DNA of 64,000 nucleotides, taken from the NCBI GenBank assembly GCA_951406725.2, contig OX597841.1, positions 12,214,001 to 12,278,000 on the forward strand, given 5' to 3'. The stretch is from Octopus vulgaris (Eukaryota). The position numbers and the translations under genes were made by a program. The notes under the pieces were generated by a model. The model had not been told where the DNA came from. It made no database searches and saw nothing but the letters and a program-made list of their open reading frames with translations. Of the stretch, positions 9,701-64,000 are shown piece after piece. Each line of letters begins with the position of its first letter. Position 1 is the first letter of the stretch.

Positions 9701-10797
9701 GGCTGTGAATGCTGAGGATATGCGTAAGCTCGCAAGAAATGAAGCCAGTATGCTCCAATGGATGTGTAATGTCAGTGTTCATACTCGACAGAGTGCAAGT
9801 ACCTTGAGAGAAAAGTTGGACCTAAGAAGCATCAGTTGTGGTGTGCAAGAGAGACGTTTGCGCTGGTATGGTCATGTGGCGAGAATGGATGAAGATAGTT
9901 GTGTGAAAAAGTGCCACACCCTAGCGGTTGAGGGTACCTGTAGAAGTGGTAGACCCAGGAAAACCTGGGACGAGGTGGTGAAGCACGACCTTCAAACTTT
10001 AGGTCTCACCGAGGAAATGACTAGAGACCAAGACCTTTGGAAGTATGCTGTGCATGAGAAGACCCGGCAGGACAAGTGAGACCATAACCATGGCCTCTAC
10101 CTGGGATGTAGCCAGTCCACTTATGCATACCTTTCTTTCTTGGGATACAAAACTCTATTTGTGAAGACCTGTTGAGGAAAGTGAAAATCAAAATCAAAAT
10201 TGATCAACATCAATGGAAATTGTAGCTGTGATACCAGTGCCGGTGGCACATAATTGATCCATCCGAACGTGGCCGTTGCCAGCGCTGCTTTGACTGGCCT
10301 CCGTGCTGGTGGCACGTAAAAAGCACCATCCGACCGTGGCTGTTTGCCAGCTTCATCTGGCACCTGTGCAGGTGGCACGTAAAAAGGACCCACTACACTC
10401 ACGGAGTGGTTGGTGTTAGGAAGGGCATCCAGCCGTAGAAACATTGCCAGATCAGACTGGGCCCGGTGCAGCCTTCTGGCTTCCCAGACCCCAGTTGAAC
10501 CGTCCAACCCATGCTAGCATGGAAAGCGGACGTTAAACGATGATGATGATGATGATATATATATATACTTTTATTCTTTTACATGTTAAAGCCATTTGAC
10601 TGCAGCTATGATGGAACATCACCTGAAAGGGTTTTAGTTGAACAAATCAACAAACCCCAGGACTTATTCTTTGTAAGTCTAGTATTTATTCTATCGGTTA
10701 CTTTTGCTGAACTGCTACATTACAGTGATGTAAACACACCAACATTGGTTGTCAAGCAATGGTGGGGATACAAATAGACACAAAGACACACAAATAA

Positions 10798-16800: not shown

Positions 16801-19800
16801 GTGGGAGCAGCATGAAATTGATGAGTGTTTTTTGTTTGAGTGAATTGGATATAACGAGGGATTTCAAAAGAGAGACAGAATTAACGAGATGAAACAAAAA
16901 CTAATGACATGGTGATGGTGGCAGTGAAACGCCACCCCTTCTATTTACCTGCATCTTCCAAATCATTGTCAGTTCATCCAAAGACAGTTTGGATCCTAAA
17001 AAGTCCACAATACCTTTCACTTTATCACAATATTGAGCTTGATCAATGTTTCCTGTGAAGAAAAATCAAATAAAAAAAAGTGTTAGATTCTCTCCTGAAA
17101 TAAGACTTAATATGTTTCTGGGGTCAATAAAATAAAGTACCAGTCACGCATAAGGGTCAATGACATTAATAAACACCTCCCCTCAAAACTGCTGTCCTAT
17201 GAACTTAAATTAGAAACAATCATCATCATCATCATCATCATCAAGGCAGTGAGCTGGCAGAATGGTTAGCACACCAGGCAGCATTTCGTCCAGTTTTAGA
17301 TTCTGAGTTAAAATTCCATGTAAGTCAATCTTTGCTTTCGTCCTTTCTGAGTCAACAAAACAAAAATCAGTTAGTATTGGGTTTAATGTAACTGACTTCA
17401 CCCTCCACCCCAATATTTCAGGCCTTGTGCCTCTACAGTAGAAAGGATTCTTCTTCTTCTTCTGGCAGAATTATTAGCATTTCCAAGCAAAAAGGCTGAA
17501 TGGCATTTCTACTGGTTCTTTACGTTCTAAGTTCAAATCCTACTGAGCTTAACCTTGCCTTTCATCTTTTCTGGGGTCAATAAAATGAAGTATCAGATGA
17601 AATTAGCCATGATAGTGTAGTCTTAAATACATTTATGTTGGAAAAAATGAGATAGTCATGGCTGGAACACCTTTGATCATGGGTCTGTTAGATAAAAACT
17701 GATCTAGGGCTAAACAACATCAACAACAAGGAAGGCCATATTAGATAATGTAGTTCTAGATACACTTATGTCTGAATAAAAGATGGAATGGTCATGGCTG
17801 GGTTGAAGAACAAGCAAAGACAGGGAACTTACCCTCTAGGGCGATGGCCAGCACACGTTTGTCAACCAAAAAGTTGAGAATTCTGTCCGAGTGAATGGCA
17901 GTCTTTAACTTACTGACTGTGGCATCGTCAATGAGTTTGGAGACCTGGAAAGGTAAGCAGAGGTAAGAACAGACTGTACCGGGGTTAGAGTCATGGTTGG
18001 GTTGTCAGGGTGTGTAGAGCTGTCACCTGAGATAGAGATAATAATACATCTACAGCAGCATGACATACTTACTTTTAATAATTACAAATGTAAATTAAGT
18101 AATATATGAATATATATTTAAATACACAAAAAGATGTTTCTGAAATTCACAGAAAGTTGAAAAGATTTAAATATAAAAAAAAACAACAAAAATACATTCC
18201 AGTTTAATGATTTTTTCCCCCCCTTCAAATGTCGTATTGCCACAGGAAGTGCTCTGATGAACTTCTTCCCTTAATTCCAGATCACTTTGGGCCATCTCAC
18301 CTGACTCAAAGCTCGTCTTCATGCAGATGCTGTTGTGCTTCCATGAATTATGAAAAATTTTTATTTGGTCATGGCCTCTTTCTCCAAACTGCCAGACTTT
18401 AAAACTCTCCCCCATCTCATTGTTTTCCTTCTCCTTTCAAGTCTTAACTAAATTCATTCCTTTCATCTTAATTTCTCCTTCTTTAGAGTCCCTTACACTA
18501 CATGGCTTCTTGCCTCTTCAGGACTTTTTTTATAAAATAAAAAAAAACACTCAGGTGTTTAGAAGGCCAACTGAGATCTTCATCAGGTCATCCTCAGCAC
18601 TTTATATGGCAAAACTCAGGGCTTCAGAATGCTACCATCACCAGGCCATGGGATCTAAACTTCTCTTCTTACTCCACACCGCAACTTGTATCAGAAGAAC
18701 CATCCCCAACATAACATTTATTTTTTTAAATCCTTATTTCTGAACTACAATAAATGATCTTCTAAAAAGGCTGTCATTTCTCTCATTATAAATTTCATTT
18801 ATTTGAATCAAATTAAAGAACAAAAGAATTTTAAGCTTCAGGTCAGCGGTTCCCACTGATTTAGACTTCAAAACACACTGGACAGAAAAGCAGTTCACAT
18901 GCGAAGATTCAGTTAAAAATTGTTTTAAAGTTTAAAATTTCATTAAAAAGAAATATAAAACTACACCTAGCATTGCTTTTTTAATGTCTGTGTGACAGAA
19001 ACTTACAATTATTATCATAATTATTTTAATTATTAAAATCATAATTTAAGGCATTAACAAGTCCTTAAATGACATTTGTCATTTTAGGACTTGTTAATGC
19101 CTTAAATTATTATTTTAATAATAATAAAAAAAAAGGCATTGGAGGGGGCAATGCATACCTTGCACACAGATAAATTTTTTTGCAAATTATAGTCTGGCTT
19201 ACAATGTGTTGCTTACAATGTGTTGCTTACAATGTGTTGCTTACAATGTGTTGCTTACAATGTGTTGCTTACAATGTGTTGCTTACAATGTGTTGCTTAC
19301 AATGTGTTGCTTACAATGTGTTGCTTACAATGTGTTGCTTAACCCATGCTTTTTAATTGAACTGAATTCATTTTTTTTTTTTAAGAATCACAATTATAGG
19401 CATTTATACTCCGGTGAAATTAAGAATTCAACTCATAAATAAACGAAACCCTTAAACCCATCAGTGTACACACACACAGAGTTGCATATCTATGTATGTA
19501 TTTATGTATGTTTGAAGATAAACCATTTCAAGCCACTCACCCAATAATTATTTCTGCCAAATTTGGTAAAAATCCATTTGACTGTTTTCCAGTAATTTTG
19601 CAAACACACAAAGATAAACAACCCTGCTTTTGCTTATGTGTGCAGGGAAATAATAATTATAATGATAATTTTAATAATAATCTTTAGCAGACCTTGTGAT
19701 GCACCATGGTGTCACATTGTATCAGTTATGAAAAACACCCTCAGACTATTGTGGAAAATTTAATGTGTTACCTCTTTTAGGGAATTCATTTTGGCATTAA

Positions 19801-31236: not shown

Positions 31237-34066
31237 GGGAGAGAGAGAGAGACGTTTTCGATCTAGTTTGGATTCTTTGTCTTCAAATTTGGATTTTTCA
31301 ATTGATGCTCAAGAGAGTTAAACTACATCAGCCCACCAATTGATATCTGAAAAGTTCGATGAAATAACTCATGAACACTGCTATAGCTTATATTTACGGT
31401 CTGAACAAGGGGAGATAATAGAAAAGAATCATTCGTTTATTATCTCCCCTAGTTCAGACCAGTCGACGACGTAAATATGACAGAAGCTATAGCAGTGTTC
31501 ATGAGTTATTTCATCGAACTTTTCAGATACCAATTGGTGGCCTCTACTGGACGAGTTAGATAAGATAGACATGTATTCCCTTACAAAGAATCCAAATTGG
31601 ATCGAAAACATCTATATATAGGCACAGGAGTGGCTGTGTGGTAAGTAGCTTGTTTACCAACCACATGGTTCCGGGTTCAGTCCCACTGTGTGGGACCTTG
31701 GGCAAGAGTCTTCTACTATAACCTCGGGCCGACCAAAGCCTTGTGAGTGGATTTGGTAGACGGAAACTGAAAGAAGCCTGTCGTATATATGTATATATAT
31801 GTATGTGTATGTGTGTGTGTTTGTGTTTGTCCCCCTAGCATTGCTTGACAACCGATGCTGGTGTGTTTATGTCCCCGTCACTTAGCAGTTCGGCAAAAGA
31901 GACCGATAGAATAAGTACTGGGCTTACAAAGAATAAGTCCCGGGTCGAGTTGCTCGATTAAAAGGCGGTGCTCCAGCATGGCCGCAGTCAAATGACTGAA
32001 ACAATTAAAAGAGTAAAAGAGTAAGAGTATATATATATAGAAAAAGTCTTTTTACGTTTCGAGCCTACACTCTTCTACAGAAAGGGACACAGAAAAAACA
32101 AGGAGAGAAAAAATGTGTGTAGTGGCTAACGATCTATCATATATACATGTCCTCATTTGTAAAGTGAATAACTAATCTAACATTATAATATCCGTAAGTT
32201 GATGAACAAACTAAATTTGTTTCTCCATTTTCTTATTTATATATATATATATACATATATATCATCATCATCATTTAACATCCGCTTTCCATGCTAGCAT
32301 GAGTTGGACGATTTGACTGAGGTCTGGCGAACCAGACTCCAATCTGATCTGGCAGAGTTTCTACAGCTGGACGCCAACCACTCCGAGAGTGTAGCGGGTG
32401 CTTTTACATGCCACCGGCACGAAGGCCAGTTTGGTGGTACTAACAACGGCCACGTCCAAATGGTGCTTTTTACGTGCAACCTGCACAGGAGCCGGTGCAG
32501 CAGCACTGGCAACGTCTTCGCTCGAATGTTTCACGTGCCACCAGCACAAGTGTTAGTAAGGCAACGTGTTAACGATCATGCTCGAATGGTGTACTTAATA
32601 TGGTGTGTTCAAATGGTGTGCATATATATATGTATATATATATACATATATTAGAAGGTTTGGAGATGATGTACAGGTATTATATATTTACAGATATTTA
32701 TTAGTATGTTACATGTTCTTATACATGGACAGGACATTCGAAGCCTTCAATCTTCAGTCAAGAACCGGATCATCCTCACAATTTCGGCTGAATAATCTTG
32801 AGATCACTCCGATCCGGCCAGCCCCAAGGAAAAACTAAGTTACGAGCATTAGATTTCTTGGAAAAAGGATTGAATGGATACGAAACAAGGACAGAAAAAC
32901 GGACGATGCCACATGAATATAAATACAAAAAACAATAATAGTAAAAACAGGACAAAAACAGCAGGTGTCTTACGACTATAGACAGTACAACTTAGTTTAG
33001 CTGGCGTATTTGGAAGAAAATGCCTTTTTTGGCAGATGAAGGCTGGTTGACCAGCGGTCACGTGAGAGGAGAAGAGAGAGAGAAAAAGAGGGACAAAGGC
33101 ACCAAAGGAAGGAGAAGAGAGAGAAAGAAGGAATTAAAGAGGGGAGAAGAAAGAGAGCGTGCCAAGGATTGGCTTGGCGACAGAATCAGTGAGGTGCAAA
33201 GTGAGAAAGACAGAGAAATATGAGAGAGTGGGGGAAGAGGAGACCAAAGAATCAGAAGCAAGAAAAGAGAAAAGGAGGAGGAGAAGAGAGAGAGAGAGAG
33301 AAAGAGACAGATCAAAGTGGAGTGCAAAGTGTGAAAGGCAGAGAAATGTAGGAGAGAGAGACAGTGTTATAGAGTCGTACCAAATTTAAAGAAATATGTA
33401 CTTACATACAAGACCAAAAGGGGTACGGGCGCCGCTATATAAATTATATGTAGAAAAATACAAACTGGGACAAGAACGTAAAACATTTAGAAAACGATAC
33501 AAAAAACACGGACGGGACATTCGAAGCCTTCAATCTTCAGTCAAGAACCGGATCGTCCTCGCAATTTCGGCTGATATGTATATATATATATATATTTTTT
33601 TTCTAGTTTCAGCTCAGAGCTGCGCCCATGCTGATGCACCGCTGTTTTGTGCTACACTGTTATTACGAAGAACCTCGTCTAATATGTGGCACTTGGTGAA
33701 GAATGGAGTTTGATATAGCTACTCTCATTTGCACCTCTTGCTGTGAGGTAGGTTCATTTGGGACTCTCGACAGGAAGATGTCCAGCTTTAATTTTAGTCC
33801 AACCCATGCTAGCATGGAAAGCGGACGTTAAATGATGATGATATATATACATATATATATATATACTCTTTTACTTGCTTCAGTCATTTGACTGCGGCCA
33901 TGCTGGAGCACCGCCTTTAGTCGAGCAAATCGACCCCGGAACTTATTCTTTGTAAGCCCAGTACTTATTCTATCGGTCTCTTTTGCCAAACCGCTAAGTG
34001 ACGGGGATGTAAACACACAAGCATCGGTTGTCAGGCAATACTAGGGGGACAAACACAGACACACAA

Positions 34067-34127
<61 letters not shown>

Positions 34128-37100
34128 CAAATAAGTCGATGGTTTTGACATCATTGCTTTATGATGCTGAAACATGCACCTTGTACCAAAAGCATACCAA
34201 CCAACTTGATGCTTTCCATATGCCAAGTTTGCATACAATCTCCAACATAAAACTGAGCGACCATATTCATAACAGTAAGGTGCTAGCATTTTGCAGTATG
34301 TCTGGTATTGAAGCCATCCTCATCAAAAGACAGCTCAGATGGTCAGGTCATCTCTCACATTTGAGTGATATCAGAATTCTGAAATAACTTCTCTTTGGCC
34401 ATTTCCTAACACGAAGGTCAGTTGGAAGGGGCCACTCTTGCCCTTTCAATGACAAACTAAAAGACAATTTGTAGCAATGCAACATTCCCTTTTCTTCCTG
34501 GGAAAACAACGCATCAGAAAAACCAAGCCTGGCGCAAGTCCTGCTTCTCCTCTGTTCAAAGATTTGAGTGAAGTCAACTCCAACATTGGGACCAACTTGA
34601 TGCAAGCTTAAAGGCTGTTCCTCTAAATGGAAACCTTAGCTGTTATTATCCAATGTTGTTCTCCTGCTTTTACAAATGTGATGTATCCTGGAAAATTCTT
34701 CCAAAATGCAAAAGTCTGTGACCTGAGTCCTATCCCCACCCCAGTGCCACTCCACCCATGACTTCCAAGTTACACAACAGAACTGGGTTGGTCTGGGAGG
34801 AATGCAGATCACAGCATGACATTGGTGGGGAGGAAGATGATTGGAAATATAGACAAGATGGTCGTGGTAGGAATGTCTGTTATGATGGGTCTGGTCAAAA
34901 CAACAAGAACAGCATCACAAATTAGATAAGTTATGAAAAATATAGTCAAAGCAGCTGGCAACAATGTTGATGGGATTTGGAGTACGTGGTGGGCACAGGA
35001 TATAACAAGAGAGAGGGAGGAGGGGGATGGAAAGAAGGTATAGAGACAGGCAGAGAGAGAAAGAGAAAGTTAGAGAGAGAGTGAGAGAGGTAAATAGATA
35101 GAGAAGATGAGTTTACCTTTTTAAAAGCTTCCGGCATACATTGTGTCATGAAGCGCTTACAGTGTTCATTGGTGTCAGCAAACCCTGGAATGGAGAAGAA
35201 TGAGGTGCAGGAGAGATAAATAGAATGGGGAGAGAGGAGGGATACCTTAGATGTAACCCTTACTATGATGGTTAAAAGGGTTTTGAGGACTGGAAGGACA
35301 TCTGGCCTTGAAACACTGCATCAGAGAAATCGTCCAACCCCTGCCAACAAGAAAAACAGAGATAAAATACAAATGACTTCAATGATACATACATATGGGC
35401 CTCATGGAGGCAAAGTGGCTGAGTTCCTTTCAAGTGTTGGGCCTCACGGAGGCAATGACCAACACCTTTGGCATTATGTCGTGTTTGAGAACAAGACCCA
35501 TCAAGCCGAGCAAAAGCACAGTTCTGGAAGATACCGGTGTCAGGTAAATGGCACCCATGCCAATGGCACATCAAAGGACCCATTACACTCTCAGAGGGGT
35601 GGGCATTAGGAAGGGCATCAAGCTGTAGAAAACCATACCAAATCAGGATGGAGTCTGGTGCAGCCTTCCAGCTTACTAGCTTTGGTCAAACTGTCCAACC
35701 TACGCCAGCATGGACAACAGACGTTAAATGATGATATGTATGAGAGTGTGTGCTGCATGTATATATATATGTGTGTGTGTATGCTGCATGTATATATATA
35801 TAGTTTCTATTATGATAAAAATGTCAGATGTCCAAAACATTACTTTTTCAGAAAACAAAAAATAGTTCCACCATTCCATTTCGTTTTATATTAGCAACAG
35901 TTTCAGCTTAAAAATAATACTTTGTCAGGCACATAAAATCCTAACTCCATGCACGTATATTTTCAGTGAGAAATATCTTTGCAAAACTATCGTATGTGGG
36001 ACTTACTACACTTTTGAAAAATGCTAAACCGTTGTACTATATCATCGTTGTCGTTTAACGTCCGCTTTCCATGCTGGTGTGGGGTGGACATTTTGACTGA
36101 GGTCTGGCAAGCCAGAAGGCTGCACCAGGCTCCAATCCAATCTGGTAAACTTTCTACAACTGGATGCCCTTCCTACGCCAACCACTCTGAGAGTGTAGTG
36201 GGTTCTTTTTACGTGCCACCAGCACAAGGACCAATCAGGTGGTACTGGCATCGACCACACTTGAATAATGCTTTTCACGTGCCACTGGCATGGGACCAGT
36301 CAGGCAGCACTGGCATCAACCACGCTTGAATGGTGTCTTTTACGTGCCACCAGCATGGGTGCAAATCAGGCAGTACTGTCATCAGCGATGACAACGACTT
36401 CACTTGCCTCAACAGGTCTTTGCAAGCACAGTTTATTGCCCAATGATTGAAAGGCTGGTTATGCTGCACTGGCACAGGCTACGGTTACAGTCGCACTTGG
36501 TTTGCCAGGTCTTCTCAAGCACAGCATATCTCCAATGGTCTCAGTCACTTGTCATCACCTTGGTGAGGCCCAACGTTTGAAGGTCGTGCTTCACCACTTC
36601 ATCCTAGGTCTTCCTGGGTCTACCTCTTCCACAGGTTCCCCTCTACTGCTAGGGTGTGACACTTTTTCACACAGCTGTCCTCATCCATACACAACACATG
36701 ATCATACCAGCGCAGTTGTCTCTCTTGCACACCACAACTGATGCTTCTTACATCAAACTTTTCTCATAGGGTGCTTACACTCTGTCGTGTATGCACACTG
36801 ACATTACACATCCAGCGGAGCATACTAGCTTCATTCCTTGCAAGCTTACACATGTCCTCAACAGTCACAGCCCATGTTTCACTGCCATGTAGCATGGCTG
36901 TTCGTACACAGACATCATACAGTCTACCTTTTACTCTTAGCGAGAGGCCCTTTGTCATTAGCAGAGGTAAGAGCTCTTTGAACTTTGCCCAGGCTATTCT
37001 TATTCTAGCAGCTACACGTTCAGCGCACCCTTCTCCACTACTGACTTGGTCACCTAGGTAACTGAAGCTATTAACTACTTCTAGTTTTTCTCCCTGAAAT

Positions 37101-40100
37101 GTGGTGGAAGTTGTTCTCTGCCCATTTTCAGTGTTTATTGCTCCTGAGCATCTGCCACATACAAAAACTATCTTCCCAGTTAGACTTTCTTTGATATTGC
37201 TGCACCTTTATGTATCCACCCACGCCTTTTCTACAGATCGAGCAGGGCCATCTACCTGAAGGGATTTGTGGTTTGTCTGCTTTCCTACTTACTAAGACTT
37301 TGGTTTTTCCTAGATTGACTCTAAGGCCCTTTGATTCTAGACCTTGCTTCCACACCTGAAACTTCTCCTCTAGTTCTGATAGTGACTCAGCTATTAGAGC
37401 AAGGTCGTCAGCGTAGAGAAGCTCCCAGGGGCATCTTGTCTTGAATTCCTCCGTTATTGCCTGGAGGACTATAATGTATAAGAGGGAGATGAGGACTGAT
37501 CCTTGGTGGACCCTTACCCCTACCTGGAATTCTTCACTGTACTTGTTGCCAACCCTCACCTTACTAACAGCTTCTCTGTACGTGGCTTGTACAGCTCTCA
37601 CTCACCACTTTTCTATCCCTAGTTTCAGCATTGACCACCAGATAAGGGATCGGCAGACCCTGTCAAAGGCTTTCTCCATATCAACAAAAGCCAGGTACAG
37701 AGGTTTATATTTGGCTAGGTATTTCTCCTGCAGCTATCTTACCAGAAACATAGCATCAGTGGTGTTTTTCCCTGGCACAAACCCAAACTGCATCTCATCT
37801 AGACTAACTCCCTTCCTAATTAGTTGGGCTATGACACTCTCCATGACTTTCATTACCTGATCCAAAATTTCCATATCTTGGCATCTGAAGCAGCTGGACA
37901 TAGAATAGCTTGACCAAAAGAACCAGCTATTGCATGCTAAATTAAATATAGAGAAAAACGCATTTGGCCAAATTTGGACATACAACAGTTTAACATAATA
38001 GCAACAATATAAATATATATATATATATATATATGCATACACACGCACATCATTAGCATCATTTTATAACTTCTCTGGCGTTGATGCCATGATAAAATGC
38101 ATCCAAAACACTCATTTTGGAGCTAGGAAAGACCAAATCACAGAAAGCAGAGCAAAAATGAGACCTGGCAGCAAGCTCTGATCGTCATCAGATCCTCCTT
38201 TCACATCCGATGCATGCCAGACATAAATAATAATGACAACGACAAGAGATAATTTACATAATTTCTTTCTCTTGCTTATCCAAGCTATTTGACTTCTCTT
38301 ATCTCGTGCGTCTAATGTCTGACCTCCTTCAACGACTGATTTCCTGCCCACTGTATCTAGCACAGACTGAACTCCTCAGCTCTGACGCTACAGATATCAA
38401 ATGGGTGGGGCAGAAATCAATGTACACACTTCAGATATAAAGTGACAATGAAGGAGGAGAACTCTATATGGGAGATAGGCCTGGTATAAATAGCAGTCAA
38501 ATCTTCCTCATATCACAGCCTGCTGTCTTATGTATGTATGAGCCAATGAGGGAGAATTCTACATGGCAGCTGGACCTGGCAGAAACAGCTACCAAATCTC
38601 AACAGAAAGAAAAAGTTCATAACCAGTGGAGTAGAAACTCCAGACATTTAAACTTGGTGCAAGTATTCAATGTGTCCCCATTAGATATGAAAATTCTGTA
38701 ATCCCAATTGTGGTTGGAGATAAGAAGTGCATTCAACTATGGAAACCATGCTACAAGCAAGATCAGGTGGATAGTAACTTTTAATAACAACAAATTAGAA
38801 CTGTGATGACGTGTCCAGTCAATGCCTGTACAGAAACTGATTGGAAGACAAGATGATGGTGAAAAGATTCTCAGGGTTCATAAACAGATCAATGGATTAA
38901 TGACTCACAGAGACACTGCAGTTTGTTATGCAACCATAATATACAACAAAGTATATTAAACACTTTATAAGTCAATACTATTTTCTACTGTGTTAGCAGT
39001 GCTATTAAATCACAGGTTAAGGTTATCCGTACAGATTTTCTATAGAAATTATAGCCAGCACATATTTGTTATGAAGTTTTGTATCCGACTACTTAACCCT
39101 TTCATTACCAACCTGGCTGAAACCGGCTCTGACTCTGTAGTACAAATGTCTTGTTTTCATAAATTTTAAATTAAAATCTTCCACCAAACCTTAGACACAA
39201 TTTATGTTCCTAACACTAGCTAAATGATAACTAAGTCATTTTACTAAATTCTTTGTTATATTTAAAATAATTGAAAGAAACACAGAGCATCTCAAAATAA
39301 ATACAGTAACGAAAGGGTTAAATATACTTTGTAGCATATTATGGTCACATAATGGAATAAGGTATCTTTATAAGTCATTAATATGCACATACCAGCTGCC
39401 AAGAAGGTGTTTAATGTATGAAATTAGTGTATCCAATAACGTTACACTGCTGTATTTAGTGGTTATTTAAGTAATGACTTTGTGGATGGTTGATGCGCTG
39501 GAGGATATGGTGCTGATGAAATATGGCATATATACACCCATTAACCATTTTTCCCATTTTTGATCTCACTGTTTGTTAACATCTCACGTCTCAGATAGAA
39601 AATTCTGTAACCAAATCAGTGCTGGTTATAATTTCAATAAAAAATCTGTTGAAAATCTTAAGTGAAGTCAACAGATATGAAGGTAGATAATGTTTAATAA
39701 ATCCATAATTACGGAAGAGTAAGGATTCTTACAACTTGAGCTTTTTCACAAAGAAGTTAAGGTTATTTTAAATAATATCTCCCAAAGAAAAAAGTCAGGA
39801 TGGCTACATTTGGAGCCATGATAAAATATACGAACCATTGAAACTATGCTTAAAGTAGAATCCATGAGAAGTCCTCTGACCTATCTACTATGGCAATAAT
39901 TACGACAAAGAACTGACTGAGATCATGATAACCCAGCAAAGCCAGATAAGCATGGGAAGCAGAGACCTGAAACAATAACAAAAGTGTTCATTTATACTGA
40001 CCTGCTTCTGCAAAATAAGTGGAAGCAAGGAGACATTTGCCGAGGGATTCTTCTTTACGATACGGGATTGACCATTGATCCACAAACACTCGACTTTCCA

Positions 40101-43100
40101 ATTCATAGAGATTAGTGACAGGAAACTCATAGTTTGTTTCTTCTTCAGCAGTGAGTAAAGGGGGCACAGAATCAATTGAAGGGTCTTTAGCAGATTTCTA
40201 GAAAAACAAAAAAACAATGGTAAAATGTCTAATGACTGGGCTGACAAACAAAGAATTATTATGACTGATGTACAGGGATGAGCTAGGATTGAGCTACAAG
40301 GGCCAGATTACATGCCTTTTAAGGGCCTCATTCTATTATCTTTAGTTTTCAATTTGGGCCACTTACTGCTTCAAGGGGGGAGGGATACTTCACTCTATTT
40401 TTCTACTGGAAACTCATATTTTCATCCAATCAATAAAATTTAGAAAGAAATTAAATGAATTTAGTTTTGCTGTTCTTAAATTCTTTGATTCTCATTCAAT
40501 ATTTGATGTACCATGTTTAAAAAAAGTACTAATCACAAGGAAACAATAATTATTTGGGAATGAAATGACTTGATAGAGTAATTAACCAATGGCAATCATT
40601 AATTTATAGATTGAAAACAGCCAGTAATGAGCAATTCCACAGGCTTTTATTTCCTCCTGAAATCCATTGCATTATTGATTACATACAGCTGATTATCTCA
40701 TACAAAAGCAAACCACAATATTACCAATTACATTTTTTATGTTCTGAACAAACTGTTTAAGTAATGATTACACTTGTGTTTTAATGTTTTAATATTTGTT
40801 CAATATTTCCTTCAATATAAAATTGAAATACTGCTTAATATTAATTCTAAACCAAAAATAATTAAAAGTTTCTTCCATTGACATTCACAGAATTGTAACA
40901 CCAGTGGCCCCCAGTATATCTGTAGAGAGTGGATTCATCAGAGACAAGTTTCACTGATGTATATTTATTTATACATCTTGAAGATCTAATTGTTTTAGTG
41001 TATTTTTTCTTAATTTAGTTAGTAAGGGACATCTGGCTACTATGTAGATGCTCCCTGGTATGGTAAGGTAAACTAATTATTGTTAACAGCAGTTAATCAC
41101 AATTGACAAAGCAAAGTATTTATTAAGTTCTCGACTACAGGTATCTGCATTTATCACCAAATATTTAATTCCACAAATGATAAGTTGTTTTGTTAGACTG
41201 AAACTAAGCACTCTTCTGTATGAGAAACAAGTCTAGAAAGCACTTCCTGTCAGGTGACAACTTGTTCACACCACGGATGTTTATTTTTGAGATTTATCCA
41301 ATTAATTTCTCCAATTCTTGAGCTTAATGTTCGTTAACACCTCTAACAGTGAGTCAGAATTTGGTGATATTTATTAATCATTTATAACTTTATTTATGAT
41401 TTATTAAGAAATTGATGACCAGTAATTAATATCTTGTAAATATAAGTGAAAATACCTAAAACACCTACATGTAATGAACTTACCTGTATTCAGCCCTACC
41501 TGGGCAGGTGAGGGTAACATGACAACAGGTAAACTCTGCACTCGCACTGTACACCAACAATTATTTTATTGTATTAACAAGTTTCATTGAAATTCATGCA
41601 ATAATTTATACATTTTGATGCTGCTAGTAGGGTGAGGGTTGGAAACGAGTACAGTGAAGAATTCCGGGTAGTGGTAGGGGTCCACCAAGGCTCAGTACTC
41701 AGCCCCCTCCTATTTATCATAGTCCTCCAGGCAATAACGGAGGAATTCAAGACAGGATGCCCTTGGGAGCTCCTCTATGCTGATGACCTTGCTCTAATTG
41801 CTGAGTCGCTATCAGAACTGGAGGAGAAGTTTCAGGTGTGGAAACAAGGATTAGAATCGAAGGGCCTCAAAGTCAATCTAGCTAAAACCAAAGTCGTAAT
41901 CAGTAGGAAGGTAGACAAATCACAAACGCCTTCAGGTAGATGGCCCTGCTCGATTTGTAGAAAAGGTGTAGATAGAAACTCTATAAGATGCACCAAGTGT
42001 AAGCTATGGACACATAAGAGGTGCAGCAATGTCAAAGGAAGGCTAACTAGGAAGATGGTTTTTGTATGTGGCAGATGCTCAGGAACAATAAACACTGAAA
42101 ATGCTCTGAGACCAACTTCCGTCACTTTCCAGGGAGAAAAACTAGAAATAGTTGATAGTTTCCGTTACCTAGGTGACCAAGTCAGCAGTGGGGGCGGGTG
42201 TGCTGAAAGTGTAACTGCTAGAGTAAGAATAGCTTGGGCAAAGTTCAGAGAGCTCTTACCTCTGCTGGTGACAAAAGGCCTCTCGCACAGAGTGAAAGGC
42301 AGACTGTATGATGTGTGTGTACGAACAGCCATGCTACATGGCAGTGAAACATGGGCCGTGACTGCTGAGGATATGCGTAAGCTCGCAAGAAATGAAGACA
42401 GTATGCTCCGATGGATGTGTAATGTCAGTACTCATACTCGGCAGAGTGTAAGTACCTTGAGAGAAAAGCTGGACCTAAGAAGCATCAGTTGTGGTGTGCA
42501 AGAGAGACGTTTGCGCTGGTATGGTCATGTGGCGAGAATGGATGTAGATAGTTGTGTGAAAAAGTGCCACACCCTAGCGGTTGAGGGAACCTGTGGAAGA
42601 GGCAGACCCAGGAAAACCTGGGACGAGGTGGTGAAGCACGACCTTCGAACTTTAGGTCTCAATGAGGAAATGACTAGAGACCGAGTCCTCTGGAAGTGTG
42701 CTGTGCGCGAGAAGACCCGGCAGGACAAGTGAGTCCATAACCCGTGGCCTTCTACATGTGATGGAGCCAGCCTACGTATGCATACCTTCCCTTCTTGGGA
42801 CACAAAACTCTACTTGTGAAGACCTGTTGAGGCAAGTGAGGATCAGAATCGAAATCGATCAATGGAAATTGCAGATGTGTTACCAGTGCCGGTGGCATGT
42901 AAGAGAACCTTCCGTTTCGCGACCGTTGCCAGCACCGCCCCGTTTCGTGTCCGTTGCCAGCCTCGCCTGGCCCTCGAGCCGGTGGCACATAAAAAGCACC
43001 ATCCGTTCGTGGCCGTTTGCCAGCTCTGTCTGGCACCTGTGCGGGTGGCACGTAAAAAGCACCCACTACCCTCTCGGAGTGGTTGGCATTAGGAAGGGCA

Positions 43101-44454
43101 TCCAGCCGTAGAAACACTGCCAGATTTGACTGGGCCTGATGAAGCCTTCTGGCTTCACAGACCCCAGTAGAACCGTCCAACCCATGCTAGCATGGAAAAC
43201 GGACGCTAAACGATGATGATGATGATGATGATGATTTTCATTCTGGACAAATTACATTTCATCCAAGTGAAAAGCACCCAGTCCACTCTGTAACGTTGCC
43301 GGTATTAGGAAGAGCATTGAACCATATGAATGATGCCAAAACACAGTGGAGTTTAGTGCAGTCCTCTTGTTTGCCAGCTCCGGTCAAATTGTCCATCTCA
43401 TGCCAACACGGAAGACAGACGTTAAATGATGATGATGATGATGATGATTACAAGAAAGGCACGAGTGGACTTTAAGGGTAGAGAATATTCATAATTTCAA
43501 ATAAATTGATTGTTTATCAATATATTGATAACATAGGAAGGATTTATTCCAACAGACACGACTGTAGGATAATTTTGCTTACCAGCTACATGGTTCTGGG
43601 TTCAGTTCCAAGCGTCTTCTACTACAGCCTTGGGCCGACCAAAGCCTTGTGAACAGATTTGTAGACAGAAACTGAAAGAAACCCAGCACACACACCTTCA
43701 ACTGACAACTGGTGTTGGTGTATTTATATCCCTGTATTGTAGCAGTTCAGCAAAAGAGATTGATAGAATAAGTATCAGGTTTTAATTAAAAGAAAAAGAG
43801 TTAAATTGCTTGAGTAAGATTCTTCAAGGTGGTTCCCCAATAAAGCAACAGGAATAATAACCAAATAACAGCCTTAACCCTTTTGCTAGCAGATTTCTGT
43901 TGCAATCCAAGACTTTTGATTCAATAAAATTTCAAAATAATGAAAAATTTTAATTAAATAACCTTTGCCATAATTAAGGTGGTGTTTGGAACATCAATTA
44001 ACATAGAATTTTGATGGAAGGTTTTAATTAAGATTTCTGCAAGAGAGGAGGTTTGTATCACAGAACCAGAGGTGGCCTCAGTCGTGTTGCAAGTGAAAGG
44101 ATTTCATTTCCAAATTTTACTTCTGTCTCATTACACCAACCCATCCACCTCACCCACACACACACACACACACATGTTTGGAAATTTTGTAATGATCAGG
44201 TACCCTAACAGGATGACAGATGTTTGATGAAACAGAACTGACTGCAGAGGGCAGCACCATATCACATAACCTGCACAACAACATTCACCACACTTCAGTC
44301 ATCTTGATAGAAACAACAGTCAGATCACCCTCGTATGTGATTATTAAGAAAGAGAATGAGGAAAGACTTTGAACAGAGAAAACTTACATAGGTAGGATGG
44401 TCATGGCAGGAAGGGTTTCAACCACAGACAATCATGATTGACTTGAAGTTAAGC

Positions 44455-44767: not shown

Positions 44768-46560
44768 AAGAGAGTGAGCAGAGAGAAACAACTTAGATTT
44801 CTCTGTTATTACATAGCACTGCCCCTGCCCCTGCCAACATCCTGGGTTTATATTTATAACTTGTAGATAGCATCTGGTGGTGGAGGGAGTGGTTGAGCAG
44901 CAGCAGCAGATGATGATGATGATGGTAGTTGTTAGATGCTCTGCCCCCTCACCATCACATGTACTCTTAGGTCAATGACTTAGACATTCTATAAATATTG
45001 TTGTTCTTGGTGGTGTATATGATCCAACAGACTTATTACAATTAAAAGCAACCCAGCCATGACAATCCAGTCATTTTCACAGGTATCTAGGAAATTCATT
45101 ATCCAGGACTGTGTTTACTTCACAAAACTGGCATGGTTGTGATTCGAGGGAGACTGGACTGTTATTTCTAGTGAAACAGCCACAGACAAGCCCTCCCTCT
45201 CCCCTTCATTGGCTTATGTTCAACAAGTGGGTTTCAAATGCATTAATGCTAAAGTGTGTGTAAACAAACACAGGAGGAATTACAACAGTGTTTCGTGGTC
45301 TGCTACCACAACAGCTCCTTTATAGGATCCAGTTAGCTCAAGACATCGTCAGGAGGAACCACGTCCAGTTTCGGGCCCCTATTCCTCTACCGTTTTGACG
45401 TGGTGGGGCCCCTATTTCGGAGGTGTCTTCAGCTCTGGTGTTGGGTGCATGTCTTCTTTCTTCTGTTCCCTGGCCTCTTCGATGTATCGTCAGCGAGTGT
45501 CAGCCGGTGACTGACTGTCTTGTCAAATTTCTCCCTTTAAATACTTGCCGCATAGGCTCCAGCAGGCAGCCCCAGCAAGTTGTCACATGACACTGTCTCA
45601 CCTTAACTGACTAGTGAAGGCACATAGTTTTAGCCCACGCATTCTCTAAACGACCGTCACCTGTCAGTCAGCTTGTCTCACCTAATGATGTTATTTCCTG
45701 TCGGCGTGTTTAAGACTTTCAAGCCATTTTCGGTCTTCCCGCTTCAGCCATATATAGAATCTGGCTTTTTCGACCGCCTCCTGTACTCTCCTTATTAGGT
45801 CACGCAGCTCGAGGCTAGAAAAAACAAATCTTCTTTTGAAAAGCGCTGACATTTTCCTTTCAATGAAGCCTCTAGCCCCCACTGCCAGGTGATAATATTC
45901 GACATTCCATCCCTGTTCTCTGCATTCTTCGATTAGCTTTTCATACCTCTTCTCCTTTCGTTCCTCTGCATTGCCAGTGTTCTCTTCCCAAGGTACTGTT
46001 AGTTCTAGTAAAATTCTCATTCTCTGGTCTCTGTTCCATAGAACTAAATCCGGTCTTTTTGTTGTTTTTATTAGTGGAAATATTACTTGTCTTTCCAAGT
46101 CCGTGGCCACCTCCCAGTATCCCTTCATCTTTCGTCTATCTCATATACTATACTTGTATGCCTGGTTTTATATCCTTTTACCTCCTTGTGGAAGTATACT
46201 TTCCTGCACTTTTCTACTTTTGGGTACTCTCCCCGATTGTACCTCTCGATCTTATCCTTGAGTGCTGCGCTTATGATGCCGAGGACTTGATTATGCTGAC
46301 ATGTATATCTTTCTAGTGCTAGTCGGCAACCTGACAGAACATGTCTAACCATCACTTTCTCTCCACATCTACACACATCGGTTGTTTTTATGTTCCACCG
46401 GAGTAAGTTCGCCGGTGAGGGTAGAACGTCAAAGGTAGACTTGATCAAGAAGGATGTTCTTGCTTGTTCCCAAGCCCAAAGTTCCTTCCATGATATTCTG
46501 CGGTTGATCACATATTCCTCCCGCACGTGCACACTCATATTTTATTTCTTTATCACTTTA

Positions 46561-51547: not shown

Positions 51548-54500
51548 AATTAAAATATATATATAAATCAAATTAAAATAAAATAAAATCAAAATCGATG
51601 AACATCAATGGAATTTGTAGTTTTGTGGTACCAGTGCCGGTGGCACATAAGAAAACCATCCGTATGTGGCCGTAGCCAGTACCGCATCGACTGGCCTCCG
51701 TGCAGGTGGCACGTAACAAACACCATCCGATCATGGCCGTGCCAGCCTCGCCTGGCCTCCGTGCCGGTGGCACGTAAAAAACACCATCCGAGCGTGGCCG
51801 TTCGCCAGCCTCGTCTGGCACCTGTGTCCGTGGCACATAAAAAAACAACATCCGAGCATGGCCGTTCACCAGCCTCATCTGGCACCTGTGTCGGTGGCAC
51901 ATAAAAAGCACCCAGTACACTCACGGAGTGGTTGGCGTTAGGAAGGGCATCCAGCTGTAGAAACACTGCCAGATCTGACTGGTCTGGTGCAGCCTCCTGG
52001 CTTCCCAGACCCCAGTTGAACCGTCCAACCCATGCTAGCATGGAAAGCGGATGAAACGATGATGATGATAAATTAGAAATATTCCCTCATATCATTACTA
52101 TTATATATATATCATCATCATCATCGTTTAGCATCCGTTTTCCATGCTAGCATGGGTTGGACGGTTCTACTGGGGTCTGTGAAGCCAGAAGGCTTCATCA
52201 GGCCCAGTCAAATCTGGCTGTGTTTCTACGGCTGGATGCCCTTCCTAACGCCAACCACTCCGAGAGTGTAGTGGGTGCTTTTTATGTGCCACCCGCACAG
52301 GTGCCAGACAGAGCTGGCAAACGGCCACGAACGGATGGTGCTTTTTATGTGCCACCGGCACGAGGGCCAGGCCAGGCTGGCAACGGACACGAACGGATGG
52401 TGCTTTTTACGTGCCATCGGCACGAGGCCAGTCGGGGCGGTGCTGGCAACGGTCCCGAAACGGAAGGTTCTCTTACATGCCACCGGCACTGGTAACACAT
52501 CTGCAATTTCCATTGATCGATTCCAATTCTGATCCTCACTTGCCTCAACGGGTCTTCATATATTTTTTCGAGTTTCTTCTACATCTTTTGCCCTCTGGAA
52601 TCTGATTCTGAACGAATAGCTTATGTCTTTCAAATCCAGATATTGTCTTACAAGTTTTGTGACATCTGACACAAGTTGTAAGAGGCAGTTGGGGTTCAAG
52701 ATTATTAGAGTGTAAGCATCTTAAGAGAAGAGTTGGGCATAAGTGGAATTTACAAGCATATATCTGTCCGTGTGTCTGATGAGGAGGATGTAGTCAATCT
52801 GGCTGGTATGCACCCCGGATTGATAAGTGATCAGATGGTTGGCAGGTTTTCTGAAGTTAGATGAGCATCACAAAACTCCAGCAGCCTTATCCCCTCATCA
52901 TTTCAGGAACCAAAGCTGTAGCCTTCATGCACACCCTGGAATCCATCAGAGTGTTTTCCAACATGTCCATTGAAGTCCCTTGCCATAATGAGAACATCAT
53001 CTTTTGTCATCAAAGTAGTCCTCAGAAGGGGTTCGCAGAAGTAGTCCTTCTGAGCATTCGCATGCCCAGTGTGTGGAGCATATGCAGAGATAACTGACAG
53101 AGTTACATCAAACAAAGGTATCCTAAGATTAATAATCCTATCACATACCCTGACTACCTTGATCACCTTATCCGCCCATTTCTCTGCTAGTAAAATACCC
53201 ATACCTCCTAGGCCATCATTTTTGCCTACCCCAAAAAATTTGTATCTGTGTCCTTTGCCCATAAGCATTTTAGCTGAGGCTCCCCACCATTGTACTTCTT
53301 GGACACAGCATACATCTACATGTCTGCACTCAAACATCTCAACTATGTGTGTCTGTGTGTCTTTTGTCTGTGTTTGTCCCCTACCACCGGTTGACAAATA
53401 GTATTGATCTGTTTACATCTCTGTAACTTAACAGTTCAGCAAGAGACTGATAAAATAAGTACCAGGCTTATTGACCTGGTACTTATTTAAGTACTGGGGT
53501 CGATTTGTTTGATTAAACCCAATAAGGTGGTGCCCCAGCATGGCCACAATCTGATAACTGAAACAAGTAAAAATAAAAGATATAATCACCCCTGCAAAAC
53601 ATTCCCCTACCCCAATCTCCCTGGATCTCTTTCTCACCTCCAAACTCCATTTAACCTAAACTACAAACCTCTCATCTCCTCCCTAAACATCATCCAACCC
53701 CAAAATTCTGCCATAGTCTGCAGCACCCTGTGGAACTTCAGGTCAGATGACTTGTGGGTACTCCACTGGTTTTATCGTAACTACCCCTATCATCATTTAA
53801 CATCAGTTTTCCATGCTGGCATGGGTTTGACCAGAGCTGGTACAGTCAGGGCCCACATGAGGCTCCATGGTTAATGCCCTTCCTAATATTAAGAACTTCA
53901 CAGGGTGCACTGGGTGCTTTTTACGTGGCACCAGCACTGACGGGGGTCATCAAGTAACTTGTAAGACAAAAACCTCTTCAGCTGGGAAGAGGAAAAAGCT
54001 TGGCAGCTTACCAAAACTAGCACTCTGGGCATGTCCCTCCACAGCCCTGACCCAACAAAAAATTCTATGCCGCAAGAGGTCCACTCATAATTCAAGTTAC
54101 TTAAGCAAAAAGCAACATCTGGCAAAACTTACCCATCACCCACCCAACTGGATGGCATTTACCCAGCAACACACATTTGCAAAGTCACAATCCAATTCAC
54201 AAAACATGACTTAATATGTTTAACAGCCCTCAACTATTTCTACCTTTCAACCTGCAACCAATCCCTTGGGTTCTTTACCAAAAATATTTCCACCCTTTTT
54301 ACAGAATTTTTTTACCTCCAATATCACAACTATGATATTTCTGTGAGCAGAAACCCCATAGAGGAAGCTTCCATCTTCACTCCCTGATTCCCAGCCAACT
54401 CCACACAACACAGATTTCACAAGTGTCCAACAATTCTATCTTCTGTTCCACCCTGCATACACACAAGTCAAGTAGAGAAGTACCTTTGGTCACCAGTCCT

Positions 54501-62933: not shown

Positions 62934-63304
62934 AAATTAACAGAATAAGATAAAAATCCAAGGCTGTGAAAGATTTCAGAACATTTATAAAGAGAAGGTC
63001 TTACAGCTGTTTCTGGGATATTTCATATATCCCTTCATCGAAGACAGTGTGAGAAAATGGTTAAGCAATAGTTATTCTAGATAAGATATGAAATAGAGAG
63101 TGAAGTGGAGGAATGAAAATCTCATGTTTATTTTCATTCCTCCACTTCATATCTTATCTAGAATAACTATTGCTTAACCATTTTCTCGCACCATCTCCGA
63201 TGAAGGGATATACAAAATATCCCAGAAACAGCTGTAAAACTTTCTCTTTATAAATGTTCTGAAATCTTTCACAGCCTTGGATTTTTATCTCATTCTGTTA
63301 ATTT
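62934..63304. repeat. Long fold-back (about 370 bp) in (TA)n context, Penelope-terminus-like
   Basis: Arms of about 180 bp are near-perfect reverse complements around a 9-nt loop at 63121-63129. Confidence 0.92.
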
Positions 63305-63332
63305 ATATATATAAATAAATATATATATATAT

Positions 63333-64000
63333 AGTGGCGTATGTACACTTTGTTCTCTTATATGTAAGTACACATTTTACAAAATCTTCTATCAGCCCTT
63401 TCACACTTATTCATTCATTCCACCCTTCGTTCTTTTGTTCCCCTCGCTCACATTTCTTTGCCTTCTCTCCTTACTCACTTTCCCTCCACTTCTTACTTCA
63501 CTGTATCCCTGTCAATTTTTCTCGCCCCTCCTTAATTCTTTTGTTCCTCTGCTTCTATTTTTCTCTCTCTTCTCTTCCCACATGACCGATCAGCCAGCCT
63601 GCGCTCTCTCTTTCTTGGTCTGACCACGGTCCAACCAACATCAATATTCTTCCCCGTGTTTGTGAAATTTTTGTATCTTTGCCTTAAGGCTTCATTTCCA
63701 TACATGCCAGCTTAATTCAATTCGTCCTTAGTCAAAAGACACCTGTTGTTATGTCCTGTTATTATTTCTATTGTATTTATATTTGTGTAACATTGGCCGT
63801 TTTTTCCATCCTTGTTTTCGTATACATTTGCTGCTTTCTTCCAAGGAATCTAATGCTCTTAGCTTAGTTCTTCCTTGGGGCTGGCCAGATTGGAGCAATC
63901 TCAAGAATAATCAGCCAAAATTGCAAGGATAATCTGGTTCTTGACTGAAGATAGAAAACTTCGAATGACCCATCCTTGTTTTCTTTGTATTGTCTATCTC
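63333..64000 (+). mobile_element. Second copy of the 32650-33575 family; runs off the right edge
   Basis: Colinear similarity to the reverse complement of 32725-33440, including the CT-rich block and the hammerhead-type motif. Confidence 0.75.
63885..63956 (+). ncRNA. Decayed pseudoknotted hammerhead (GAAA box changed to AAAA)
   Basis: CCAGAUU gga GCAAU-C^UCAAGAA ua AUCAG CC AAAAUUGC aaggau AAUCUGG UUCUUGA CUGAAGA UAGAA. Confidence 0.55.

What the first reader, a model, noticed from the sequence alone, without database searches (positions are those of the whole stretch)
32746..32817. The same pseudoknotted hammerhead layout in an unrelated repeat family, with different helix sequences
Minus strand: CCGGAUC-gga-GUGAU-C^-UCAAGA-uua-UUCAG-CC-GAAAUUGU-gaggau-GAUCCGG-UUCUUGA-CUGAAGA-UUGAA. 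Every element of the 45.3-kb motif recurs: A-C-B order, a 2-3 nt I-to-II crossover, CC before GAAA, U after CUGANGA, and a 7-bp P0 that starts CC, ends GG and abuts helix I'. The paired sequences differ (P0 CCGGAUC/GAUCCGG vs CCACGUC/GACGUGG; helix I UCAAGA/UCUUGA vs GAGGAA/UUCCUC). This cross-family covariation within one window is the strongest argument that the fold is real. The predicted cut is AUC^ between 32802 and 32801. Helix III is G-U rich in this copy, but sister copies give GCAAU/AUUGC.
Basis: partly seen in the sequence, partly recalled or inferred. Interest (0 to 1): 0.9.

Follow-up and report, generated by a model that had tools for sequence, protein, structure and literature searches.

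The report
Split-core hammerhead ribozyme in jumping genes
The motif is one worn copy of a repeated RNA fold that has all the catalytic letters of a hammerhead ribozyme in a scrambled order; it likely cuts the RNA of Penelope-like jumping genes that were reported to lack such a ribozyme.

Summary
Core, AUC site, helices I, III and P0 are present; a strict descriptor hits this motif and the 45.3-kb one, and nothing in 300 shuffles. The order is type SGC (Eckert 2023), known only from metatranscriptomes. Its true partner is the strand just upstream of P0 (GGCUGG, 32823-32818), giving canonical G10.1-C11.1 with different Watson-Crick pairs in four genome families. The chain is thus open between CUGANGA and helix II, an order outside Eckert's six. 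The P0/helix III loop fits the kink-turn consensus. The host is a ~865-bp non-coding, (TA)n-inserting, partial-tandem repeat, likely a non-autonomous Naiad. Published Naiad consensus ends, said to lack hammerheads, show this layout (9 records) or its CSG circular permutation (6 nematode records), read by eye. Copy 5' ends pile up at or just after the predicted cut (30 of 59), indirect support for cleavage. Against: no cleavage assay; most 45.3-kb-family copies have lost the upstream strand; this copy is CpG-decayed. No earlier scan note matched.

The parts
32722..33575 (-). Family A element: non-coding, pyrimidine-rich ~865-bp unit in partial tandem (5'-truncated upstream pseudo-LTR, body, downstream pseudo-LTR whose 3' end is lost at ~32722)
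   Evidence: 1711 exact hits of a 25-nt 3' tag in G000
33445..33575 (-). Upstream partial pseudo-LTR; begins after (TA)n 9-10 nt 3' of the predicted cut, so it lacks the cleavage-site strand
32818..32823 (-).
32811..32817 (-). P0 5' strand (= 3' strand of the I-II interaction helix of type-SGC hammerheads)
32808..32810 (-). GGA: 3n, 2n, 1n of a predicted kink-turn between P0 and helix III
   Evidence: 94/100/94% conserved; k-turn definition
32802..32807 (-). Helix III 5' strand and cleavage triplet AUC; predicted cut between 32802 and 32801; GUGAU here is CpG-decayed from GCRAU
32796..32801 (-). Helix I strand 1.1-1.6
32786..32791 (-). Helix II 3' strand UCAGCC (11.6-11.1) after a 4-nt crossover
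32778..32785 (-). GAAA core box and helix III 3' strand (UUGU here, UUGC in 98% of sisters)
32772..32777 (-). GAG-GA-U: 3-nt bulge, 1b, 2b, 3b of the predicted kink-turn
   Evidence: bulge letters vary (G69/T28, A98, G70/A24), G-A-U 96/98/100%
32765..32771 (-). P0 3' strand
32750..32763 (-). Helix I strand 2.6-2.1, CUGAAGA core box and the following U; 3' end of the predicted ribozyme
45345..45411 (-). Family B motif, same layout (7-bp upstream helix II in this copy, AAAA bulge instead of a k-turn), in the 3' UTR of a retrotransposon
45691..46541 (-). Broken ORF end upstream of family B with a CCHC-type knuckle and a PD-(D/E)xK-like endonuclease motif: RLE-type non-LTR retrotransposon (HERO-like; label recalled)
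   Evidence: Pfam no significant hit; unnamed eukaryotic clusters, nearest named zf-RVT at 0.77
63879..63951 (+). Diverged family A copy: P0 with two changes on both sides, but GAAA mutated to AAAA (predicted dead)

Best explanation
The motif is a CpG-decayed copy of a predicted hammerhead ribozyme with the non-circular type-SGC fold, whose chain is open inside the core between CUGANGA and helix II, carried in the pseudo-LTR of a likely non-autonomous Naiad-type Penelope-like retroelement. SHOWN (sequence): the order II5'-P0-III'-AUC^-I-II3'-GAAA-III-P0'-I'-CUGANGA; helices I, II and P0 close a three-way junction; a k-turn-consensus loop joins P0 to III; 5' ends of copies are enriched at and just 3' of the cut. 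INFERRED: the RNA first folds the P0/k-turn/III hairpin, whose loop shows the cleavage site, helix I and II strands and GAAA. The two arms at the hairpin's base (G10.1 strand; I'-CUGANGA) then dock on such a loop. Because P0 and III are tied by 0-7-nt linkers, docking more likely (about 55:45) occurs between two copies (tandem pseudo-LTRs of one transcript, or a swapped oligomer) than within one; the kink, possibly helped by an L7Ae-family protein, supplies the bend. Cleavage would be partial and would cut tandem precursors to unit length. Internal reverse transcription from the pseudo-LTR end would then give ~135-nt solo copies starting at the cut (cleaved template) or longer and partial-tandem copies (uncleaved or circular template).
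For: Descriptor null 0 hits in 38.4 Mb. All core letters 96-100% conserved in 54 sisters. Families A, C, D, E keep G10.1-C11.1 and U16.1-A15.1 but use different Watson-Crick pairs at 10.2-10.5, 1.1-1.5, 16.2-16.4 and P0. The upstream strand beats the downstream one in A (-8.3/-3.0), C (-8.1/0.0), D (-4.6/-3.1) and E (-5.4/-2.2 kcal/mol). Family C equals the 3' end of published Octopus Naiad consensuses (248 exact hits, 0 control). The same layout, read by eye, is in Naiads of Acropora (3 near-identical records), Morbakka, Pomphorhynchus, Eulimnadia and Beroe, where the downstream strand does not pair; six nematode Naiads carry the intact CSG circular permutation with the same P0. SGC and CSG hammerheads cleave in vitro and need the I-II interaction helix. 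5' ends: 30 of 59 ends between -140 and +45 lie in -3..+17 (hazard 0.0159/nt vs 0.0013-0.0057 elsewhere; scan p 5e-5; also enriched at non-AT/TA starts, p 4e-4); 28 of 30 (TA)n junctions lie at or 3' of the cut. (TA)n insertion, partial tandems and inverted 5' pieces match Naiad traits.
Against: No cleavage was measured, and an open chain between A9 and G10.1 has no precedent in the papers read; Eckert et al. assumed this block cannot be split. Within-family covariation is not significant (55 of 500 shuffles reach it), so the case rests on a few families, and D and E look related. In family B only 13 of 45 copies keep >=5 upstream pairs, the downstream strand scores as well there (-3.5 vs -2.6) and only 1 of 64 copies ends near the cut. 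In D and E a 4-bp G-U-rich downstream helix is also possible. Only 12 of the 30 clustered ends lie within -3..+5; upstream tandem copies show no clear enrichment (2 of 9), nor does family D (5 of 25 at +6..+17, 3 at -13..-21, by eye); stalling on structure could contribute. One P0 pair is an A-C mismatch in 59% of family A copies. No autonomous partner of family A was found. The k-turn is absent in B and in several Naiads.
Confidence: 0.72

Rival explanations
1. One reading: an ordinary type-SGC hammerhead with helix II made by the strand after CUGANGA and CC bulged before GAAA; the upstream strand is an alternative (off-switch) pairing.
For: Keeps block C intact as Eckert assumed. 4-5 pairs are possible in A, B, D and E in some register, and in B the upstream strand is mostly lost. 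Two pairings could be a switch.
Against: Needs C11.1 unpaired or a U-C at 10.1-11.1 in A and B, whereas G10.1-C11.1 is highly conserved in PLE hammerheads. The fifth pair in this copy is a private mutation. No usable downstream pairing in family C (duplex 0.0 kcal/mol) or in the Acropora, Pomphorhynchus and Eulimnadia Naiads.
Confidence: 0.1
2. The fold is real but no longer catalytic: a hammerhead-derived protein-binding or RT-recruiting structure at the pseudo-LTR; the pile-up of 5' ends is reverse-transcriptase stalling plus TA microhomology.
For: PLE hammerheads are weak in vitro, and in PAc are dispensable for insertion and protein-assisted. Ends are spread over 20 nt, 18 of 30 at +7..+17. 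Family B shows no ends at its site.
Against: Every catalytic position and an NUH site are kept across families with unrelated helices. The end density drops at the cut rather than at the 3' edge of the structure (hazard 0.0022 at +18..+45). Enrichment holds at non-microhomology starts.
Confidence: 0.13
3. Minimal type I PLE hammerhead (Cervera and De la Pena 2014) using CUGAAGA with the downstream UUC-GAAU-GUC; the upstream pairings are incidental.
For: A core-like spacing and a near-palindromic GAAGGCUUC follow CUGAAGA; one variant reads GAAA-GUC.
Against: No helix I after that GUC, U instead of A15.1, GAC in the 63.9-kb copy, no equivalent in B-E; the upstream helices have a null of 0 in 38.4 Mb.
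Confidence: 0.03
4. Chance arrangement of short complementary strings in repeats.
For: The nested MFE is not better than shuffles; Rfam is silent.
Against: and the Naiad records; neither tool models this topology.
Confidence: 0.02

Closest known systems
Type-SGC hammerhead ribozyme / HRIMA-1 (Eckert et al. 2023, PMC10085705)
   Same: S-G-C order, short I-to-II crossover, helix joining the other sides of stems I and II (P0), full core.
   Different: Known only from metatranscriptomes, none in genomes of known organisms. There CUGANGA is joined to helix II and the chain is open between the interaction helix and block S. Here that link is closed and the chain is open between A9(U) and G10.1; k-turn-like loop; retroelement host.
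Type-CSG hammerhead (same paper; two metagenomic sequences)
   Same: Same circular order of strands; six nematode Naiad consensuses show it intact (by eye).
   Different: Opened between helix III and P0; block C intact.
Minimal and canonical type I hammerheads of Penelope-like elements and animal retrozymes (PMC4209133; bioRxiv 10.64898/2026.07.22.740005)
   Same: Located in pseudo-LTRs or tandem units; extra nucleotide after A9; G10.1-C11.1; proposed dimer action and processing of tandem precursors.
   Different: Type I circular permutation, short or absent helix III, no pseudoknots.
Naiad Penelope-like elements (Craig et al. 2021, PMC8557442)
   Same: (TA)n targeting, partial tandems, inverted 5' pieces; family C is the Octopus Naiad 3' end.
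   Different: Described as lacking canonical hammerheads (only HHR_core / HHR_half_core notes). Family A has no ORF and no sequence link to a Naiad was shown.
Standard kink-turn (Huang and Lilley 2016, PMC5061560)
   Same: 3-nt bulge followed by G.A and A.G between two helices in families A and C.
   Different: Predicted from sequence only; 2-nt or reversed in D/E, absent in B.

Membership tests
Hammerhead ribozyme | CUGANGA and GAAA boxes, NUH site with U16.1-A15.1 | tested here: met
   96-100% in 54 family A copies; also B-E
Hammerhead ribozyme | Helices I, II, III next to the core, G10.1-C11.1 | tested here: met
   with helix II from the upstream strand; not met in most family B copies
Hammerhead ribozyme | Site-specific self-cleavage | not testable with these tools
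   only indirect: 5'-end pile-up
Hammerhead types I-III (Rfam models) | Circularly permuted order of the three blocks | tested here: not met
   order is S-G-C; no Rfam hit
Type-SGC hammerhead (Eckert 2023) | S-G-C order with ~3-nt I-to-II linker | tested here: met
   linker 1-5 nt across families
Type-SGC hammerhead (Eckert 2023) | Helix binding the other sides of stems I and II | tested here: met
   P0 follows the helix II 5' strand and precedes I'
Type-SGC hammerhead (Eckert 2023) | Block C uninterrupted: helix II strand within 1-2 nt after CUGANGA | tested here: not met
   0-2% pairing at 10.1-10.5 without a bulge; with a 1-nt bulge 10.1 fails; so works like SGC but is not a member as defined
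Standard kink-turn | 3-nt bulge, tandem G.A/A.G, flanking helices | tested here: met
   families A and C against the definition; 3b.3n is U.G in A, U.U in C
Standard kink-turn | Folds into a ~50 degree kink, binds L7Ae-family protein | not testable with these tools
   needs FRET, probing or binding
Naiad Penelope-like element | N-terminal GIY-YIG, CxC, RT ORF | tested here: not met
   family A unit is non-coding, so at most a non-autonomous derivative; a Naiad-type N-terminal fragment exists in G000 but is interrupted
Naiad Penelope-like element | Partial tandem (pseudo-LTR), inverted 5' copies, (TA)n insertion bias | tested here: met
   traits
Animal (non-LTR) retrozyme | Type I hammerhead in each unit of a 150-400-nt-scale tandem repeat; circular RNA | tested here: not met
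   not type I; unit ~865 bp, mostly solo or partial tandem (the retrozyme size range is recalled); circles not tested
HERO clade RLE non-LTR retrotransposon (family B host) | RT phylogeny plus CCHC and RLE domains | tested here: inconclusive
   C-terminal motifs seen, label recalled; no RT tree; Pfam silent

The most novel reading that the evidence does not exclude
Naiad Penelope-like elements across ctenophores, cnidarians, molluscs, crustaceans, acanthocephalans and nematodes carry non-circularly permuted hammerheads. The form seen here is a seventh natural permutation, broken inside the catalytic core, that assembles from two or three RNA copies through a protein-bindable kink-turn, so that cleavage senses tandem copy number. 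The module has also been captured by an unrelated RLE retrotransposon.
Probability: 0.35. Interest if true: 0.92.

Novelty: new variant of a known kind. Interest (0 to 1): 0.8.

Why it matters
It would move non-circularly permuted ribozymes from a curiosity of unassigned metatranscriptome contigs to thousands of copies in animal genomes. It breaks the stated rule that CUGANGA must be joined to helix II, and explains why Naiads seemed to lack hammerheads, which bears on whether Penelope-like elements need their ribozyme. It hands over short, directly testable constructs and a search descriptor. The 5'-end pile-up is a genomic footprint of cleavage of a kind that was not seen in RNA-seq for the one PLE tested.

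Tried and rejected
Rfam at E<=1 (window) and E<=10 (32600-33700): only microsatellite-driven miRNA hits. Nested folding: uninformative for a doubly pseudoknotted fold; the window copy prefers a hairpin that buries the cut. Within-family pair counts on 10 copies (9 distinct): 99% paired, covariation not above shuffles. GIY-YIG loci (30 of 148 matches fetched): a young C-terminal-EN PLE family without this motif in the flanks held and without a link to family A. Search for an autonomous family A parent: 22 long copies gave only a second non-coding subfamily. Linking family C to an ORF inside G000 failed: 2 of 20 fetched flanks were checked and the one Naiad N-terminus found is interrupted. RNA: no RNA holder listed; four contig sets guessed to be RNA cover the stretch, with a dip at 32797-32807 that coincides with this copy's private changes, and contigs cannot show ends, so nothing is drawn from it. 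One search used wrong coordinates and is void. Lünse et al. 2017 was not held. Literature: 9 answered searches (one search was for k-turn rules) found no report of SGC/CSG or split-core hammerheads in retrotransposons or animals. Subscription journals, Repbase reports, the supplement of Eckert et al. (not opened) and bioRxiv supplements (closed) could hold one. Scan notes: none by place or sequence.

Full report
OBSERVATION. The quoted strings are all present on the minus strand. The strict version gives 0 hits in 300 shuffled windows (38.4 Mb over both strands) and 0 in 741 kb of reversed loci; without the helix II demand it gives 2 hits in the shuffles. Rfam has no hit and nested folding is not informative, as expected for a doubly pseudoknotted fold.

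WHAT CARRIES IT. The motif belongs to a repeat, family A: 2367 first-look candidates and 1711 exact hits of a 25-nt tag in a 2.8-Gb genome. The unit is about 865 bp, pyrimidine-rich, non-coding, ends about 95 nt after CUGAAGA in (TA)n, and often stands as a partial tandem. In the window the upstream partial copy starts at 33575, 9-10 nt 3' of the predicted cut. Several copies have inverted 5' pieces. These are the traits Craig et al. 2021 list for Naiad Penelope-like elements (PMC8557442, passages), so family A is inferred to be a non-autonomous Naiad-type element; no autonomous parent was found. The 45.3-kb family (B, 1113 exact tag hits) is the 3' UTR of an unrelated retrotransposon whose broken ORF ends in CCHC-type and restriction-like-endonuclease motifs (HERO-like is a recalled label; searches do not prove it).

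CLOSEST KNOWN FOLD. Those RNAs cleave in vitro, need a helix joining the far sides of stems I and II, and were found only in metatranscriptomes. The authors assumed CUGANGA is always followed directly by its helix II strand.

HELIX II IS ELSEWHERE. The six letters just 5' of P0, GGCUGG, pair with UCAGCC right up to GAAA at 87-98% per position, with canonical G10.1-C11.1. The descriptor turned up two more families by chance in fetched flanks: D (638 tag hits) and E (2706 candidates). A fifth, C, came from the published Octopus Naiad 3' end (248 hits, control 0). A, C, D and E all keep G-C at 10.1-11.1 and U-A at 16.1-15.1 while using different Watson-Crick pairs elsewhere: at 10.3 CG, CG, AU, GC; at 10.4 UA, AU, GC, CG; likewise in helices I, III and P0 (9, 14 and 16 gapless rows for C, D, E, of 15, 27 and 22 found). 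D and E have similar flanks and count as less than two independent cases. Against this: in family B only 13 of 45 copies keep five or more upstream pairs, most having a G run there, and the downstream strand is as good; in D and E a 4-bp downstream alternative exists; covariation inside family A is not significant.

TOPOLOGY. With helix II upstream, P0 follows the helix II 5' strand and precedes I', which is the SGC interaction helix. The motif is therefore the SGC circle opened at a new place, between A9 (plus the usual extra nucleotide, which Cervera and De la Pena note in PLE hammerheads, PMC4209133, first two parts read) and G10.1.

NAIADS. I read by eye the last ~300 nt of 46 of the 54 Naiad consensuses in Craig's supplement, plus core-box hits. 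Nine records show the split-core layout: Obim, Ovul, Amil, Aacu (one mismatch in helix II), Anas, 2_Movir, Plae, EuTe, and Bfor (helix I only 2 bp). These are six distinct sequences; Esco is a partial tenth. Six nematode records (1-, 2-, 3_Nbra, Hcon, Hpol, Asuum) show the intact type-CSG order with the same P0. The other displayed ends showed neither, though the motif may lie outside what was displayed. Craig et al. state that Naiads lack canonical hammerheads and marked some of these only as core or half-core. Helices I and II of family B are letter for letter those of Naiad_Plae, which suggests B's host captured the module; that is inference.

KINK-TURN AND ASSEMBLY. The loop between P0 and helix III in family A is GGA opposite NAN-GA-U: a 3-nt bulge whose letters vary, then G.A, A.G, U.G and Watson-Crick pairs. 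That is the standard k-turn of PMC5061560 (passages); 3n=G permits ion-induced folding according to the abstract of PMC4382518 (search listing). Family C has the same with U.U, which I recall as box C/D-like; box C/D k-turns fold only with L7Ae (abstract of PMC5689011). D and E have k-turn-like variants; B has a plain AAAA bulge. By A-form dimensions (about 2.8 A per pair, my estimate, not modelled), a monomer must bring the base of P0 some 40 A back to the tips of helices I and II. That is marginal in A even with a kink, and seems out of reach where helix III is 10-13 bp and one linker is 0-1 nt (Acropora, Eulimnadia). Docking of one copy's arms on another copy's loop removes the problem and parallels the dimeric action proposed for other PLE hammerheads. 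Eckert et al. flag the same geometric puzzle for some SGC RNAs.

FOOTPRINT OF CLEAVAGE. For the first 100 tag hits on contig C1 (96 distinct anchors), 30 of the 59 5' ends between -140 and +45 lie in -3..+17 of the predicted cut. The hazard is 0.0159 per nt against 0.0013-0.0057 in the six other bins; a scan over all 21-nt windows gives p=5e-5 (the simulation floor), and the excess holds for starts with and without AT/TA (p 5e-9 and 4e-4). Independently listed (TA)n junctions agree: 28 of 30 loci at or 3' of the cut, 2 in the 19 nt 5' of it (by eye). The simplest reading is reverse transcription to the end of a cleaved template with loss of a few bases on joining. Limits: only 12 of the 30 are within -3..+5; upstream tandem copies (2 of 9) and family D (5 of 25) are too few or unclear; family B has 1 of 64, fitting either its decayed helix II or the lack of a second copy. 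Internal initiation at the pseudo-LTR is taken from PAc (PMC11167929, passages), where the hammerhead was protein-assisted and dispensable in vitro.

THIS COPY. Two CpG changes leave helix III with three consecutive G-U pairs and weaken the k-turn's C helix, and the 3' end is lost, so this copy is probably weak or inactive. The 63.9-kb sister has lost G12.

VERDICT. Observation real, helix II corrected. Odds: hammerhead-derived fold about 0.95; helix II from the upstream strand about 0.85; self-cleaving in source elements about 0.72 with that fold. It works like a type-SGC hammerhead but fails that type's block-C definition: a new variant. Not found in print in the searches (listings; passages; part 1 of the retrozyme preprint). 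Interest 0.8.

Noticed in passing
window 32735-32750 (-): After CUGAAGA a near-palindrome GAAGGCUUC and CGAAU-GUC look like the remnant of a minimal type I PLE hammerhead; a variant in L021 reads GAAA-GUC. No helix I supports it.
   Followed up: partly
window 45405-45500 (-): Family B carries two further CUGANGA boxes upstream, one followed after 7 nt by GAAA (Craig's HHR_core pattern).
   Followed up: no
G000:C28:24554175-24554735: Family B 3' ends in a ~260-bp tandem array, retrozyme-like.
   Followed up: no
L057, L062 and others: Young Penelope-like family with many 781-aa open frames ending in GIY-YIG; no CUGANGA...CGAAA on the sense strand in the flanks held.
   Followed up: partly
window 62934-63304: 165-nt inverted repeat, 93% complementary, 41-nt spacer (MITE-like), directly before a family A copy at 63325-63995.
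   Followed up: no
window 10287-10556, 42944-43236, 51634-52489 and others: Abundant SINE-like family with ~64-bp internal tandem units and (ATG)n tails; an inverted pair at 52018-52167 gives a spurious mir-2513 hit.
   Followed up: no
window 9179-10101, 36471-37574, 41617-42742: Copies of a LINE 3' region (RTE-like by recalled peptide motifs seen in L280).
   Followed up: no
Craig 2021 supplement, bivalve and arthropod Naiad 3' ends: Bivalve Naiads share a different conserved 3' motif without a hammerhead core; spider and ostracod ones have CUGANGA after a CCCC run in another context. Possibly further ribozyme types.
   Followed up: no
L068:1500-1650: GIY-YIG hit that looks like an exon of a host SLX1-type gene (label recalled), not a transposon.
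   Followed up: no
window 19197-19341: Perfect 14-bp minisatellite, 10.4 copies.
   Followed up: no
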